Notes: generated by a model from the letters alone, not told the origin. A stretch of 64,000 nt of DNA from Octopus vulgaris (GCA_951406725.2 OX597816.1:15190001-15254000); one strand, 5' to 3'; positions 299 through 57,588 are shown, numbered from the stretch's first letter. A program made the numbers and translations.

Positions 299-810
299 AT
301 ATATATATATATATATATATATATATATATATATATATATATATAGATGCAGCACGGACTTTGTCAGTGAACAGGTCGCGGATTTTAGCGACGAAAATAT
401 TTTGACAAATTAAACTTAAATGTTGAAGTGAATCGAACGGCTTTTGTGTGTTTCTTAAATGGCTTATAAACACCTTCCATGCTGCAATTGTTTTCGTTTC
501 AGCACACGATCTCAGATCAAATTACTTGCTATCCGAGTACATCTCCATAATATATATATATATATATATATATATATATATATATATATATATATATATA
601 TATATATGTATATATATATATATATATATATATATATATATATATATATATATATATCGTGACGTATATTTGCCATCTCAATATGGCTACCCCTAAGGGT
701 GGATGCTACTGTAGTTTTTAGCCCCAGGAGGACACACTCCTCCAGCTGGCCATAGACACACTTTCTGTGTCCTGTCAGTATTTGCAAAGGGAAGTCATCC
801 TTCCCGTCTT

Positions 811-880
811 CAACTTATGATACACACGGACTCGAGTTTCGAGGTATTGACCTCTCGTCAGCGTGTGACAATCATAGTTG
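811..880 (-). ncRNA. Type I hammerhead ribozyme, copy 1
   Basis: Minus strand reads cacacg-CUGACGA-gaggu(caau)accuc-GAAA-cucgag-UC/cgugug. Core is canonical, stem III is the palindrome ACUCGAGU, and stem I extends past an internal loop (uaugau/aucaua). Predicted GUC cleavage between 829 and 828. Confidence 0.9.
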
Positions 881-1162
881 TCGGCGAGAATTAGATCTCC
901 TTCACAAATACTTATACTTTTTCCAGCGTCCACTGTCGCTGATATTGAAAAAGTGAAATCAAACAATGATAAATATCAAAGTGAGTTATATACAGTAGCG
1001 GTAACACATCGTGACGTATATTTGCCATCTCAATATGGCTACCCCTAAGGGTGGATGCTACTGTAGTTTTTAGCCCCAGGAGGACACACTCCTCCAGCTG
1101 GCCATAGACACACTTTCTGTGTCCTGTCAGTATTTGCAAAGGGAAGTCATCCTTCCCGTCTT

Positions 1163-1232
1163 CAACTTATGATACACACGGACTCGAGTTTCGAGGTATT
1201 GACCTCTCGTCAGCGTGTGACAATCATAGTTG
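1163..1232 (-). ncRNA. Type I hammerhead ribozyme, copy 2
   Basis: Identical motif 352 bp from copy 1; predicted cleavage between 1181 and 1180. Confidence 0.9.
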
Positions 1233-1710
1233 TCGGCAAGAATTAGATCTCCTTCACAAATACTTATACTTTTTCCAGCGTCCACTGTCGCTGATATTGA
1301 AAAAGTGAAATCAAACAATGATAAATATCAAAGTGAGTTATATACAGTAGCGGTAACACATCGTGACGTATATTTGCCATCTCAATATGGCTACCCCTAA
1401 GGGTGGATGCTACTGTAGTTTTTAGCCCCAGGAGGACACACTCCTCCAGCTGGCCATAGACACACTTTCTGTGTCCTGTCGGTATTTGCAAAGGGAAGTC
1501 ATCCTATATATATATAAAAAGTGGCACCCCATCAGTTATGACACCAAGTGGCACTCCCAAGGCTTAGGGTTGTCCTGAGGCTATTGTAAGTGGAAGACAG
1601 AAGCAAACTTCCTACCACACATCCATGCCCCTGTGCCTGTATTGTGTTATTTAAATTTTAAAACTTGCTGCTCTGCTACCACCAATTGTCTATGATACCC
1701 TGGCTGGAAA

Positions 1711-52984: not shown

Positions 52985-53348
52985 CAATTCAATTTTTCAA
53001 TTCAATTCAATTTTTATTGGCTCAAAAAGCAAAAGCAAGGTCATGTAGGGGGACAGGAAGTTATGTACAGGGAGGGTGGTCATACAAAGAGTTCAGGTCA
53101 TTTCAGGTCAAGAGAGGCTTTGAACCGAGCGGTTGTTGGCATCTTCACTATCTTGTCTGGCAGCTTATTCCACGAATCCGCAACCCAGACGGAGAAAGCC
53201 CCTCTCCTTCAATTGAGATGAAATCGTCGTAGATGGAGCTTTTTGGAGTGACCCCGCAACCCATGCTCTGGAGCAGGAGTGAATAACAGCTCTTTCGAGA
53301 GGTTACACTTTCCACTTATGATGTTGTGAGCGAGGATGAGATCACCTT
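52985..53348 (-). mobile_element. CR1-type LINE 3' fragment
   Basis: DLILAHNIISG...LRGHSKKL...FSVWVADSWNKLP...FKASLD; (ATTGA)n tail. Confidence 0.85.
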
Positions 53349-56300
53349 CCCCTGCACATTCTCCTCCCTAATTCTTCATAGTAGTGGGAGCTTTTCCCAC
53401 TCCATTTCCTTCTCTTCCTCTATTTTTTTCCAGTCTTGCAAGTTAAATAGTAACCTCATTAGTGCTGGTGTGGCATGAAAATAGCATCTAGTACACTCTG
53501 TAAAGTGGTTGGTTTTAAGAAGGGCATCTGGCCATAGAGACCATGCCAAAGATTATATTAGAACTCAGCACAGCCTTGCAGTATGCTGATTTCCTGCTAA
53601 ACTGTCCTACCATTTCGAGCATGGAAACTGGAAGTTATATGATAATGATGATGATGGTTAGTAATATGGCTCTGAGATCAAAGCTGAGTGCTGTAAAATA
53701 TAAGAATAATGAAGATGATGTGCTATATAATGGAAAAGATTAAGGGGCAGATTTTAAGGCTTTGGTGATGATGGCAGTATCATCAAGACACGCGCAAACG
53801 GGGACCAGAGTAAAAGCAAACAACAAAACAAAACAGTGATGGTCAGGTCAGGTCAGATGTAGGGGCCTGTGCCTTTGCAGTGCATTGCTGCATTCACTGT
53901 TTGTTGGTATACTCCTGCGGCGAGCTGGCAGAAACGTTAGCACGTCGGGTGAAATGCATAGCCGTATTTCATCTGCCGTTACGTTCTGAGTTCAAATTCA
54001 AAGGTCGACTTTGCCTTTCATCCTTTCGGGGTCGATTAAATAAGTACCAGTTACACGCTGGGGTCGATATAATCGATTTAATCCGTTTGTCTGTCCTTGT
54101 TTGTCTTCTCTGTGTTTAGCTCCTTGTGGGTAGTAAAGAAATATGTATACTCCTGCATCCTCGTGGGTGACCTATGGAACAGAATTCCAGTCAGTCCCTA
54201 TCTCCATGAGATACCTTCTCATCTGCTGTTAACATGTGGCAGGTGATTGACCAATATGAGTTGCCGACCCACTCAGATCCTCAGTGAAAAGAACATGGTA
54301 AGCAGAGTCTGGCTCAGAAAATTGAAAAACACATCCAAATAGTCTAATGTGGTGCTCCCAAATCGTATAAATAACAAGGCACATCTCAGTTCCTGAGTAA
54401 CCCCTAATACTGCAGAGTGTTCTGGTACTGAAGGAGTTTAGGCAGCCCATAAGGGCTCTGGGTTGTGTCCAAGGCTCCCAATTATAGAGCAGGACAATCT
54501 TACTTCATATTTGAAATGAAGTTTCCCCAACATGGCCAGGGTCCCTACTAATGTAATTGGAACTAGAAACCCTTTATTTTTCTTTCCAGTACCTCATATT
54601 TTACCATGGAAACCATTTTTTTTCTTTTTCTGTAAATGAAACACACAAGATTTATCAATACAGTCGACTTTCAATTATCTGATTAAATATGAAATGAAAT
54701 GATTTTTCAATACCATTAATGAATGCTATATATATGTGTGTGTGTATGGGTGTATATACATACATACATACATACATACATATATATATATATATATATA
54801 TAGATGGATTTGTATATATAATATATATATATGTACAATATATTTATTTGTATGTATGTGTATATATGTATCTATATATATATATATATATATATATATA
54901 TACACACGCACATACATACATATATGTGTGTGTGTGTATGTGTCTGTGCATACATAGCTATACACAAATACAAATTTATAGATGTGTTTGAATATGTGTG
55001 TGTATGTGTGTGTGTGTTTGTGCTTGTGTGTGTGTGTGTGTGTGTGTGTGTATGTGTGTGCATACTTTATAATTAAACTCTAAAAGCTGATTATCTCTGT
55101 TTAATCTTTCTGTTGCTATTGCCGTTGTTATCGCCATAGTATTAGCTCTGTAGTAGTAGTAGTAGTAGTAGTAGTAGTAGTAGTAGTAGTAGTAGTAGTA
55201 GTAGTAGTAGTAGAATTAGTAGTAGTAGTAGTAGTTATTTTTGCTGTTGCTTGTGGTGGTGGCTGTAATGGTGTTTTGTTTAGATTTTATTACTCATGTT
55301 CATTAACATGTTGCTATTGTTGCTGTTGTTGTTGTTTTACTATTGCAATTAATGTTGTTTTAAACTATTGTTGTTGTTGTTACAATTTCTGGCTGTTTTT
55401 GCTGTTATTATTGCAGCTTGCTTTGAAGTTATTTGTTGTCAATGGTATTTTGTTTCTTTCATATATATTCATATATAACAAGCTCTCTCTCTCTCTCTCT
55501 CTCTCTCTCTTTTTTATATATATATATATATATATATATATATATATACATATATTACATACATACATACATACATATATATATATATGTATATATATAT
55601 ATGTAAATATACGTATATGTATATATATATATATATATATACACACACACACATATATAAATGTATATTATATATATGTGTATTATATATCTATATATAC
55701 ACACACATATATATATATTTACATATATATATGTATACATACATATATATATATTTACATATATATATGTATACATACATATATATACATATATGTATAT
55801 ATGTATATATGTATACATACATATATATATACATATATGTATATATGTATACATGCATACATACATATACATATATATATATATATATACATACATACAT
55901 ATATACACACATGCATATACATGTGTGTATATATATATATAATATATACATATATATATATATATACATATGTATGTATTGTGTGTATATATACACACAC
56001 ATATATGTATATGTATGTATATATATATATATATATATATATATATATATATATATATATATGTTTATATATACATATATGTATATGTATATAAATCATT
56101 ATTTAAGTTATTCTATTGTTTATTGTTGTTATTGTTGTTGTTAATGTTGTTGCCGCAATTTGTTAGTGTTTGGATCTTTTTAAGTCTTCTTGACATTCAC
56201 AATGATGCTGATGATATTGCTGTTGCTTCCTGTTACCATTGATGTTGTTGTTGTTGTTGTTGTTACTGCTGCAGCAATTAAATTAGTTTTCTTTACTATT

Positions 56301-57540
56301 GTTGTTGTTGTTGTTGTTGTTGTTGTAGTTACTATGGTTACTGCTATTGCTGTTGTTTAACCCCCATGTCATGCCTGGTTGAGGAAATCTGTTGATCAAA
56401 AGCCCTCCATGGCCATCCTGCCTTTTCACAGATATCCAGGACTCCATTATATAATTCTTTTATTTTTTCCCTTGCTTCAGTCATTGGAATGTGGCCATGC
56501 TGGGGCACCACCTTAAAAGGTTTAGTTGAATAAATTGAGTCCACTATTTATGTCTGGTACTTACTACATCAGTCTCTGTCTTGCTAAACTGCTAAGTCAT
56601 GAGGATATACATAAACACAAACACAAGCAGATATATGCATACACATGCATATATGTATATACTGATGCAATTCGCACACGCGCGTATATATATATATATG
56701 TGTATATATATATATATATATATATATATATATATATATATATATATATATATATATATATATGTAAACAAGCCTACAAATACATGTACATACATACATA
56801 TATATATACAAATACACATAAATATACATGCATGCATGTAGATGTATACATGCTCATATACATACATATAGACATATAAATGTATGTGTGTCATCATCAT
56901 CATCATTATTGTATATATATATATACACACTCACACACATATATAGATACACATATATATATACACACATATACATATATATACACATATATATACATAC
57001 ATAGATATATAAATACATACATACATACACACACACACACATATATATATATGCCTGTACATATATGCATACATATAGACATACACAAATATACATTCAT
57101 ATACACACACACATGCACAAATGCATATTTATACACTCACACACACACATACACACACACACACACAAACAAGCACATGTGAAAAACCCCATTCCCTTTC
57201 CCCACATACTCTCTTCTCCCCAACAAGAATTTTCAACATTATCAGTTTGAAGATATTCAAGTATTAGGCTTTATATGATTTGAAAATATTTTTGAGGCAC
57301 ATTTGCTCATTTGTTGTGTATAATTATTGCCTCATTATTTCTGATTGCCTGCATGATAGGCATTGTAGCATCATCCAGTTGCTAAATCTTTAAATCAACT
57401 GCACAGGACCATCTTTATCTTGCAACTTGAAAATTTATATTAACATTACATATCCATGACGTTAAATATATGTTAAATAAAATGAGACAACAAAGCCAAG
57501 GTTGTGTGGAATTTTCAGGACATTTATAAAGAGAAAGCTA

Positions 57541-57588
57541 GTCTTACAGCTACTTCTAGGATATTAGGGATATCCCTTCATCAGAGAC
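57541..57588 (-). ncRNA. Decayed minimal hammerhead
   Basis: gucu-CUGAUGAA-gggaua(ucccuaa)uauccu-a-GAAGUAGCUGUA-agac, two changes from GAAACAGCUGUA. Confidence 0.55.

What the first reader, a model, noticed from the sequence alone, without database searches (positions are those of the whole stretch)
656..57588. Window-wide: about six unrelated hammerhead-bearing families in 64 kb
About 13 intact or decayed type I HHR motifs were found (823, 1175, 6365, 9335, 14879, 19261, 20875, 21232, 22364, 39517, 48603, 48701, 57541). Most have a palindromic stem III (ACUCGAGU, ACGU, AUAU, ACAAUUGU), lie in simple repeats and often show local inversions. If this density is representative, the genome holds a very large ribozyme-based mobilome of autonomous Penelope elements with tandem and tRNA-headed passengers. 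Intronic copies could cleave host pre-mRNA (inference).
Basis: partly seen in the sequence, partly recalled or inferred. Interest (0 to 1): 0.72.

Follow-up and report, generated by a model that had tools for sequence, protein, structure and literature searches.

The report
Hammerhead remnants of Penelope jumping genes
All 13 ribozyme-like motifs are real, but ten are decayed; four of the six families trace to the tails of Penelope-type jumping genes, a known source of such motifs in animals, and the unusual part is a young, intact family whose motif has one normally fixed core letter changed, likely slowing a self-cutting activity that is untested.

Summary
All 13 sites are real: profiles recover 13 of 13 in six sequence-unrelated families, with 0 hits in shuffled windows. 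Only 3 pass a strict hammerhead descriptor. B, C and D are terminal repeats (pLTRs) of RT + GIY-YIG Penelope-like elements (F likely too, one locus). A is a young 352-nt tandem retrozyme with Penelope-style ends. E has no parent found. The 'tRNA-headed passenger' (C) is a coding element's own pLTR. A 1-Mb sample across the genome holds 32 intact motifs and 87 remnants, about 90,000 and 240,000 if scaled; the window is about 2.5-fold richer in remnants and typical for intact ones. Such numbers are known in axolotl and schistosomes. The notable variant is family B: 17,912 exact 27-nt matches, 96 of the first 100 with U at core position 6, also in 99.4-99.8% identical intact elements. Cleavage of host pre-mRNA is unsupported: no gene was found in the window, and published solo minimal hammerheads do not cut alone. 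This scan already noted the U6 core, the tRNA-headed pLTR and the retrozyme ends on other DNA.

The parts
656..1505 (-). Family A: 2.4 tandem units of a young 352-nt non-coding retrozyme, with (TA)n at both ends
   Evidence: TRF 99%; 448 exact 32-nt motif matches genome-wide; circular fold z = -7.0 against 60 shuffles; fixed 3' ends
823..867 (-). Intact canonical-core type I hammerhead (CUGACGA, 5-bp stem II, ACUCGAGU palindrome); predicted cut between 829 and 828
1175..1219 (-). Second intact hammerhead of the A array; predicted cut between 1181 and 1180
6266..6464 (-). Family B pLTR stub; minimal hammerhead with U6 core (CUGUAGA, C3 at 6396), stems intact
   Evidence: coding parents
9291..9460 (+). 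Family B pLTR stub; core destroyed
14786..15104 (-). Family C pLTR: tRNA-like head (about 15015-15105), (AAT)n, hammerhead at about 14880-14925 with C3U and G12A (decayed)
   Evidence: 1,656 exact matches of the intact motif
19233..19394 (+). Family B pLTR stub; U6 core (CUGUUGA) and stem II intact, stem I reduced to 3 bp
20661..21269 (-). A2: older tandem relative of A (about 75% identical) with two decayed hammerheads (about 20875-20920 and 21228-21269)
22166..22450 (+). Family C pLTR: tRNA-like head 22182-22256 with a short fold-back, (AAT)n, hammerhead at about 22364-22395 with most of stem II deleted
32573..32847 (.).
   Evidence: profile hit 32746-32833, E 1e-5; inverted repeat
39516..39559 (-). 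Family D minimal hammerhead with U3:A8 core and AUAU palindrome, stem I mismatched; about 180 nt downstream of the endonuclease stop
39733..41438 (-). Broken Penelope-like ORF: RT fragments 41438-40653, GIY-YIG part 40365-39733
   Evidence: Pfam GIY-YIG E 4e-4, below the curated cut-off; tblastn to the family-B parent protein E 2e-22; relatives 80-88% identical
48370..48830 (.). Family E: inverted pair of hammerheads with a long stem II (about 48600-48685 minus, core intact, stem I mismatched; about 48697-48778 plus, decayed); ACAAUUGU palindrome
57467..57795 (-). Family F terminal-repeat stub (57467-57693) with a decayed hammerhead at about 57538-57588 and an inverted 5' piece (57695-57795)
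   Evidence: 102 exact matches of the intact motif

Best explanation
The 13 motifs are real hammerhead sequences of six families, ten of them decayed, likely left by Penelope-like retroelements that carry the motif in their terminal repeat and paste mostly short 3' stubs into AT-rich microsatellites. Shown here: B, C and D motifs lie downstream of GIY-YIG coding sequence on the same strand. B parents are intact, near-identical 4.5-kb units with a motif at each end. A is a non-coding 352-nt tandem whose insertions have two fixed 3' ends about 45 nt apart, scattered 5' ends and frequent inversions. Inferred: reverse transcription starts just downstream of the motif, so every insertion, however short, copies it, which explains the density. 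Because stem III is only a palindrome, cutting likely needs two motifs paired, or the element's protein, as in tandem transcripts; solo stubs are likely inert and decay. A likely makes a circular or multimeric RNA that Penelope enzymes copy. The U6 core of B is likely a slowed but still constrained ribozyme.
For: 13 of 13 recovered, 0 in shuffles. B: endonuclease fragment upstream of the motif in L017 and L021. Of 20 loci that I picked for long frames from 285 hits, 10 have an open frame of 1,000 aa or more with RT (YIDD) and GIY-YIG motifs, 19 carry the motif, and 31 of 31 motifs have U6. Pfam RVT_1 E 1e-7. Seven parents are 99.35-99.79% identical. C: endonuclease frame ends just before the tRNA-like head in 4 of 20 loci. 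D: motif about 180 nt behind the ORF, also in relatives. A: of 26 complete array arms, 16 end at unit position 169-173 and 8 at 216-220; 5' ends scatter over 7-323; 24 have a TA-repeat 3' flank; 15 of 40 loci hold both orientations (my count). Constraint on B: position 7 is U/A/C/G in 37/25/21/13 of the 96 U6 matches (my count of the first 100 rows); stem I swaps C-G for G-C between B1 and B2; in four public runs far more contig depth lies on the 40-nt motif than on its flanks. Literature: PMC4209133, PMC7229834, PMC11167929, 10.64898/2026.07.22.740005.
Against: No cleavage, RNA end or circular RNA was observed. No coding parent was found for E in 25 loci. For F the link rests on one locus (L357: RT-like hit iE 5e-5; Pfam did not recognise its frames); the endonuclease upstream of F in L340 belongs to another element. 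The enzyme that moves A is not identified. No A insertion begins or ends at the predicted cut site, so the DNA does not itself record cleavage. RNAfold does not return the active fold for most exemplars, as monomer or dimer. Clade names were not tested with a tree. A6C is reported to lower activity (PMC3088659), so B may be inactive.
Confidence: 0.85

Rival explanations
1. The family-B motif is a dead ribozyme kept as a binding or priming structure for the element's protein; U6 spread because cutting is dispensable or harmful.
For: A6 is near-invariant and A6C lowers activity (PMC3088659, section 8). In the anole Poseidon element, hammerhead mutants do not affect insertion in vitro and no RNA ends were seen at the cut site (PMC11167929). 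The sister lineage B2 has a different core change, U4C, in 7 of 16 sampled copies. Naiads proliferate without canonical hammerheads (PMC8557442, passages).
Against: C3, G5, G8, A9, GAAA, both stems and the palindrome are kept across subfamilies whose flanks are only 72-82% alike, while positions 7 and 17, the free positions of a working hammerhead, vary.
Confidence: 0.35
2. The motifs act on the host: intronic sense copies cut pre-mRNA and are selected for or against.
For: 32 intact motifs per Mb means many must lie in introns of a 2.8-Gb genome. Xenopus retrozymes are depleted from introns and exons (10.64898/2026.07.22.740005). Conserved intronic hammerheads exist in amniotes (PMC6155905, passages).
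Against: Only 7 of 32 intact sampled motifs have a same-strand partner within 1 kb, all in one array. Monomeric minimal hammerheads showed no cleavage (PMC4209133), and 8 of 9 Xenopus dimers tested did not cut. 10 of 13 window copies are decayed. No host exon was recognised here (54 frames). Intron strand bias could not be tested without annotation.
Confidence: 0.1
3. Family C is an independent tRNA-headed SINE riding on Penelope enzymes.
For: Most C copies are short: head, (AAT)n and hammerhead tail only. A- and B-box-like motifs are visible. tRNA-related SINEs with hammerheads exist in schistosomes (PMC2770079, PMC6765202, passages).
Against: A GIY-YIG-type frame runs up to the head in 4 of 20 loci and in 1 sample locus, so short copies are explained as 5'-truncated pLTRs. 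ARAGORN (20 loci) and Rfam (4 loci) did not recognise the head as tRNA. Short copies could still retrotranspose secondarily from the Pol III-like boxes.
Confidence: 0.2
4. The motifs are chance matches in low-complexity, AT-rich sequence.
For: The window is 36.5% GC and full of microsatellites; most copies fail a strict descriptor.
Against: 0 hits in 50 shuffled windows; 0, 0, 0 and 0, 1 in shuffled 1-Mb samples against 26 and 32 real hits; backward-pattern controls 0; family majority sequences restore complete hammerheads.
Confidence: 0.01

Closest known systems
Minimal type I hammerheads (min-HHR) in pLTRs of metazoan Penelope-like elements (Cervera and de la Pena 2014, PMC4209133; main text parts 1-2 of 4 and supplement parts 1-2 of 3 read)
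   Same: Short helix I, extra nucleotide between 9 and 10.1, palindrome in place of helix III, U3:A8 variant (D), mostly solo copies, some close inverted pairs, many families per genome.
   Different: No cephalopod and no U6 core among the aligned representatives I read; counts there are thousands (about 9,000 in Xenopus) against an estimated 48,000-146,000 intact here with a wider descriptor; E has an unusually long stem II; C has a tRNA-like head inside the pLTR.
Metazoan non-LTR retrozymes (Cervera and de la Pena 2020, PMC7229834, passages; Li et al. 2026, 10.64898/2026.07.22.740005, parts 1-3 of 5)
   Same: Family A: about 350-nt non-coding tandem unit, one canonical-core type I hammerhead per unit, highly self-paired circle; proposed there to be moved by Penelope-like elements.
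   Different: Here the insertion ends themselves (two fixed 3' ends, 5' truncation, inversion, TA-repeat targets) point to Penelope mobilisation; no circular RNA was shown; no sequence link of A to a pLTR was found.
Poseidon element of Anolis carolinensis, PAc (Frangieh et al. 2024, PMC11167929; parts 1-2 of 4 read)
   Same: Single RT + C-terminal GIY-YIG ORF, pLTR with hammerhead, AT-rich targets, two RT start sites that give an optional tail.
   Different: Its core is canonical and overlaps the ORF start; the B parent has a Cys-rich linker between RT and endonuclease (Neptune-like per PMC8557442), a U6 core, and its start codon about 800 nt downstream of the motif.
Sm-alpha / Sj-alpha SINE-like hammerhead elements of schistosomes (seen only through PMC2770079 and PMC6765202 passages; Ferbeyre 1998 not held)
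   Same: tRNA-related Pol III-type head joined to a hammerhead; tens of thousands of copies.
   Different: Those are non-coding tandem SINEs with canonical hammerheads; family C is the terminal repeat of a coding element with a minimal hammerhead.

Membership tests
Type I hammerhead ribozyme | Core CUGANGA / GAAA / UH with stems I and II in type I order | tested here: met
   Met by window copies 823 and 1175 and by family majorities of A, C, E, F; D has the known U3:A8 swap
Type I hammerhead ribozyme | A at core position 6 (family B) | tested here: not met
   U6 in 96 of the first 100 matches and 31 of 31 motifs in parent loci; B has the fold but not the canonical core
Type I hammerhead ribozyme | Intact core and stems in each window copy | tested here: not met
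   3 of 13 pass the strict descriptor
Type I hammerhead ribozyme | Self-cleavage after position 17 | not testable with these tools
   No assay and no raw RNA reads
min-HHR of Penelope-like elements | Palindrome instead of a stable helix III; extra nucleotide at 9/10.1 | tested here: met
   Palindrome in all six families; extra nucleotide in B, C, D, F, not in A or E
EN+ Penelope-like element | One ORF with RT and C-terminal GIY-YIG endonuclease upstream of the motif | tested here: met
   B: 10 of 20 picked loci with an open frame of 1,000 aa or more; D: broken ORF in the window; C: endonuclease part in 4 of 20 loci
EN+ Penelope-like element | Same, for families E and F | tested here: inconclusive
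   F: one locus with RT-like and endonuclease-like fragments (Pfam silent); E: none in 25 loci, 1.1 kb of shared non-coding upstream sequence
EN+ Penelope-like element | Direct terminal repeats (pLTRs) from partial tandem insertion; inverted 5'-truncated copies | tested here: met
   7 of the 10 long-frame B loci have a motif on both sides about 4.5 kb apart; inversions in E, F, C and A loci
EN+ Penelope-like element | Clade placement (Neptune, Poseidon, Nematis) by RT phylogeny | not tested
   Names rest on linker motifs and recall; no reference sequences were on hand
Non-LTR retrozyme (family A) | Non-coding tandem unit of 150-450 nt with a type I hammerhead in each unit | tested here: met
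   352-nt unit, motif in both full units; no Penelope coding match belonging to the unit in 30 loci
Non-LTR retrozyme (family A) | Highly self-paired monomer | tested here: met
   -117.9 kcal/mol as a circle against -82.5 +/- 5.0 for 60 shuffles, z -7.0
Non-LTR retrozyme (family A) | Accumulates as circular RNA | not testable with these tools
   Only contigs were available
tRNA-derived SINE (family C) | Element begins at the tRNA-derived head and is non-coding | tested here: not met
   Coding frame continues upstream of the head in 4 of 20 loci
tRNA-derived SINE (family C) | Head recognisably tRNA-derived | tested here: inconclusive
   A/B-box-like motifs by eye and regex; ARAGORN 0 of 20 loci, Rfam 0 of 4

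The most novel reading that the evidence does not exclude
This genome carries one of the largest hammerhead loads described in an invertebrate (on the order of 10^5 intact motifs in at least 24 sequence clusters), and its most abundant sampled lineage has twice shifted to altered cores (A6U in currently intact autonomous elements, U4C in a sister lineage) while keeping the rest of the fold. Attenuated, protein-assisted ribozymes would then be selected in high-copy Penelope lineages, perhaps because they cut only inside the element's own RNP and spare host transcripts.
Probability: 0.25. Interest if true: 0.7.

Novelty: new variant of a known kind. Interest (0 to 1): 0.42.

Why it matters
The general picture is known: Penelope-like elements scatter minimal hammerheads through animal genomes. 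What this genome adds is scale (Rfam reported 235 hits for the giant squid, PMC6962438, and scores the two best motifs here below its cut-off) and a ready test of an open question, whether these elements need to cut their RNA at all. Family B offers intact, near-identical autonomous copies with a U6 core beside a sister lineage with A6 and C4 cores, so cleavage rate and transposition can be compared directly. Descriptors that demand CUGANGA miss 15 of the 32 intact motifs in the sample.

Tried and rejected
Rfam on the window was swamped by microsatellite matches to miRNA models; the genome-wide Rfam search scored only 73 of 263,217 candidates and gave 6 matches, so it is no count. Expression of A: no RNA holder listed; contigs of three guessed-RNA runs and one unlabelled run were laid, but contigs cannot show transcription, ends or circles, so nothing is concluded. 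RNAfold monomer and dimer folds do not recover the catalytic fold for most families. A shifted register for B (UUGAAGA) was rejected, because the variable position would then be U4 and B2 has A6 in the unshifted register. The endonuclease upstream of F in L340 and the RT fragment in L349 were rejected as F's parent. No host exon was found: 54 of 93 candidate frames in non-repeat segments were scanned against Pfam, with no hit; neighbouring DNA was not read, so intronic or intergenic status is open. One pattern for A relatives was mis-specified and returned 0 (no evidence). Literature: 'hammerhead + Penelope + octopus', 'SINE + Penelope + tRNA-derived + hammerhead', 'hammerhead + A6U' (one twister paper, listing only) and searches showed no description of cephalopod Penelope hammerheads or of a U6 core. 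Lunse et al. 2017 on Penelope-associated hammerhead variants and Ferbeyre 1998 are not held and could not be read; the former may already describe such cores. bioRxiv supplements were not seen.
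Full report
Setting. The window is G000:C3:15190001-15254000 in a 2.80-Gb animal genome. The host is likely an octopus; this rests on the recalled repeat landscape and on earlier scan notes and was not tested. No host exon was recognised.

Observation. Each of the 13 positions shows a hammerhead-like string. Majority sequences of D, E and F restore complete hammerheads. The families are unrelated by blastn except A-A2 and B1-B2. A strict descriptor (core, stem II of 4 bp or more, palindromic stem III, stem I of 4 bp or more) passes 3 of 13: 823, 1175 and 6365, against 0 in 30 and 0 in 20 shuffles. 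Of the others, 19261 has a 3-bp stem I; 9335 has lost the core; 14879 and 48701 have lost G12; 22364 has lost most of stem II; 57541 has lost A15.1 pairing; 20875, 39517 and 48603 have stem mismatches; 21232 is cut off by (TA)n (read).

Is the density representative? I took 100 stretches of 10 kb at round coordinates across 28 large contigs (systematic, not random). The strict descriptor finds 26 motifs, or 32 when U4C is allowed, against 0, 0, 0 and 0, 1 in shuffles. Cores: 17 CUGANGA (7 in one array), 7 CCGANGA, 6 CUGUNGA, 2 UUGANAA. The bootstrap range is 17-52 per Mb, and 15-37 without that array. The six window families give 57 remnants per Mb. A library of 24 clusters of strict hits from all loci held, plus the six profiles, gives 87 per Mb (64-113; 0 on reversed sequence; some are self-hits) and 14 in the window. 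Scaled to 2.8 Gb this is roughly 90,000 intact motifs (48,000-146,000) and 240,000 remnants (180,000-320,000). A 64-kb draw gives 5.5 remnants on average (P of 13 or more 0.025) and 2.0 intact (P of 3 or more 0.27). The window is thus about 2.5-fold rich in remnants, partly because its own families are fully in the library, and ordinary for intact motifs. Whole-genome exact pattern counts: B 17,912, C 1,656, A 448, F 102; backward controls 0.

Family B. Most copies are stubs of about 200 nt between (TA)n tracts. Longer copies run into a GIY-YIG C-terminus. A search with that fragment gave 285 matches; I fetched 20 chosen for long frames. Ten have an open frame of 1,015-1,200 aa with YIDD and YIGQT motifs, 7 of them with a hammerhead on both sides about 4.5 kb apart; 19 of 20 loci carry the motif and all 31 motifs have U at position 6. 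Pfam gives RVT_1 (E 1e-7) and weak GIY-YIG. Seven copies are 99.35-99.79% identical, so the family is young. A Cys-rich linker suggests the Neptune group (PMC8557442, passages; not tree-tested). In the first 100 pattern matches position 6 is U 96, A 2, C 1, G 1, while position 7 is U 37, A 25, C 21, G 13 among the U6 copies (my count). The sister lineage B2 has A6, a G-C for C-G swap in stem I, and C4 in 7 of 16 sampled copies. In four public runs with four other organism codes, contigs span position 6 without a difference, and summed contig depth peaks on the 40-nt motif (depth is no copy number and the share of A6 cannot be read from it). Inference: U6 is inherited through several master lineages while the rest of the fold stays constrained. 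Natural A6C has low but detectable activity (PMC3088659, section 8).

Family C. A tRNA-like head, (AAT)n and a canonical minimal hammerhead. After an earlier scan note suggested it, I checked upstream: a GIY-YIG-type frame ends just before the head on the same strand in 4 of 20 loci and 1 sample locus. It is therefore the pLTR of a coding element, and the short copies are 5'-truncated. ARAGORN and Rfam do not call the head a tRNA.

Families D, E, F. D has the U3:A8 core about 180 nt behind a broken RT + GIY-YIG ORF in the window; relatives are 80-88% identical and many frames have stops. F follows RT-like and endonuclease-like fragments in one locus (Pfam silent). E shares about 1.1 kb of AT-rich non-coding upstream sequence among copies and has no coding parent in 25 loci.

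Family A. A 352-nt unit in 2.4 copies, 99-100% identical to dispersed arrays on many contigs; the cut-to-cut monomer folds as a circle at z = -7.0. Of 26 complete arms in 21 loci records (2 arms at a locus edge dropped), 16 end at unit position 169-173, 8 at 216-220 and 2 elsewhere; 5' ends scatter; 24 have a TA-repeat 3' flank; none starts or ends at the cut site. Two RT start sites that give an optional tail, and AT-rich targets, are the Penelope signature (PMC11167929). A fits the non-LTR retrozymes (PMC7229834), which were proposed to be moved by such elements (10.64898/2026.07.22.740005).

Mechanism. Shown: position of the motifs in terminal repeats, fixed 3' and variable 5' ends for A, microsatellite context, decay of most copies. 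From the literature: minimal hammerheads do not cut as monomers and cut weakly as dimers (PMC4209133); the anole motif cuts only with the element's protein and is not needed for insertion in vitro (PMC11167929). Inferred: reverse transcription begins just 3' of the motif, so even the shortest insertions carry it; cutting is confined to tandem transcripts or the element's RNP. In the window only 823/1175 are a close same-strand intact pair; in the sample 7 of 32 are, all in one array. Host pre-mRNA cleavage by solo copies is therefore unlikely, and intron strand bias could not be tested.

Known and new. Massive min-HHR occurrence is published (thousands per genome, PMC4209133; about 120,000 retrozyme motifs in axolotl, PMC7229834; over 38,000 in Schistosoma mansoni, PMC2770079). 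Recently active Penelope-like families are reported for an octopus, with no mention of ribozymes in the two of three parts I read (PMC13282606). I found no paper on a U6 core (no U6 among the aligned representatives in the supplement of PMC4209133), but Lunse et al. 2017 could not be read. Earlier notes of this scan already report the U6 core in this and other genomes, the tRNA-headed pLTR and Penelope-style retrozyme ends; I found U6 in intact parents before those look-ups, and they are not independent support.

Papers seen: PMC4209133 (main text parts 1-2 of 4, supplement parts 1-2 of 3); 10.64898/2026.07.22.740005 (parts 1-3 of 5); PMC11167929 (parts 1-2 of 4); PMC13282606 (parts 1-2 of 3); PMC3088659 (passages and section 8); PMC7229834, PMC8557442, PMC6962438, PMC2770079, PMC6765202, PMC6155905, PMC8967140 (passages).

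Verdict. Observation confirmed; interpretation partly supported. A known kind of system at large scale, with one testable variant (A6U in a young autonomous family). Interest 0.42.

Noticed in passing
L022, L153, L180, L197, L201, L212, L222, L234 and other sample loci: Sister lineage B2 of family B: about 16 copies per Mb, canonical A6, with a subfamily carrying U4C (7 of 16 sampled copies). Its coding parent was not sought.
   Followed up: partly
L147:2260-4560: A young 359-nt tandem retrozyme related to A, with 7 intact motifs in two opposed arms (palindrome ACCGGU).
   Followed up: no
clusters (L020, L161, L010, L305, L001, L130, L137, L143, L162, L173, L182, L210 and others): About 17 further hammerhead clusters, many with very long stem II insertions and 8-10-nt palindromes.
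   Followed up: no
L340:860-910: Another Penelope-like family whose endonuclease is followed by a U3:A8 hammerhead-like string with only a 2-bp stem II.
   Followed up: no
   Followed up: partly
window 20452-20520: Orphan 3' tail of family B, truncated downstream of the hammerhead.
   Followed up: partly
window 12874-13060, 32900-33010, 33300-33530: Short AT-rich repeats next to (TA)n (the first a fold-back) that look like further Penelope-type ends; not checked for the permuted hammerheads that earlier scan notes describe.
   Followed up: no
window 49340-51603: Tandem array of a 340-353-nt unit (about 6 copies, 91-93% identical) with no hammerhead found.
   Followed up: no
window 10545-10960 and 42815-43411: tRNA-like-headed SINE copies with an internal 184-185-nt unit repeated 2-3 times.
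   Followed up: no
window 13550-14300, 36900-37560, 63000-64000: Decayed transposase-like sequence (Tc1/mariner-like by eye; Pfam gave no hit for the two frames tested).
   Followed up: no
window 11350-11434: Isolated 85-nt near-perfect hairpin (94%).
   Followed up: no
L308-L317: In intact family-B parents the reading frame runs on past the endonuclease into a length-variable C/T-rich tract, so the protein would have a variable Pro/Ser-rich tail.
   Followed up: no
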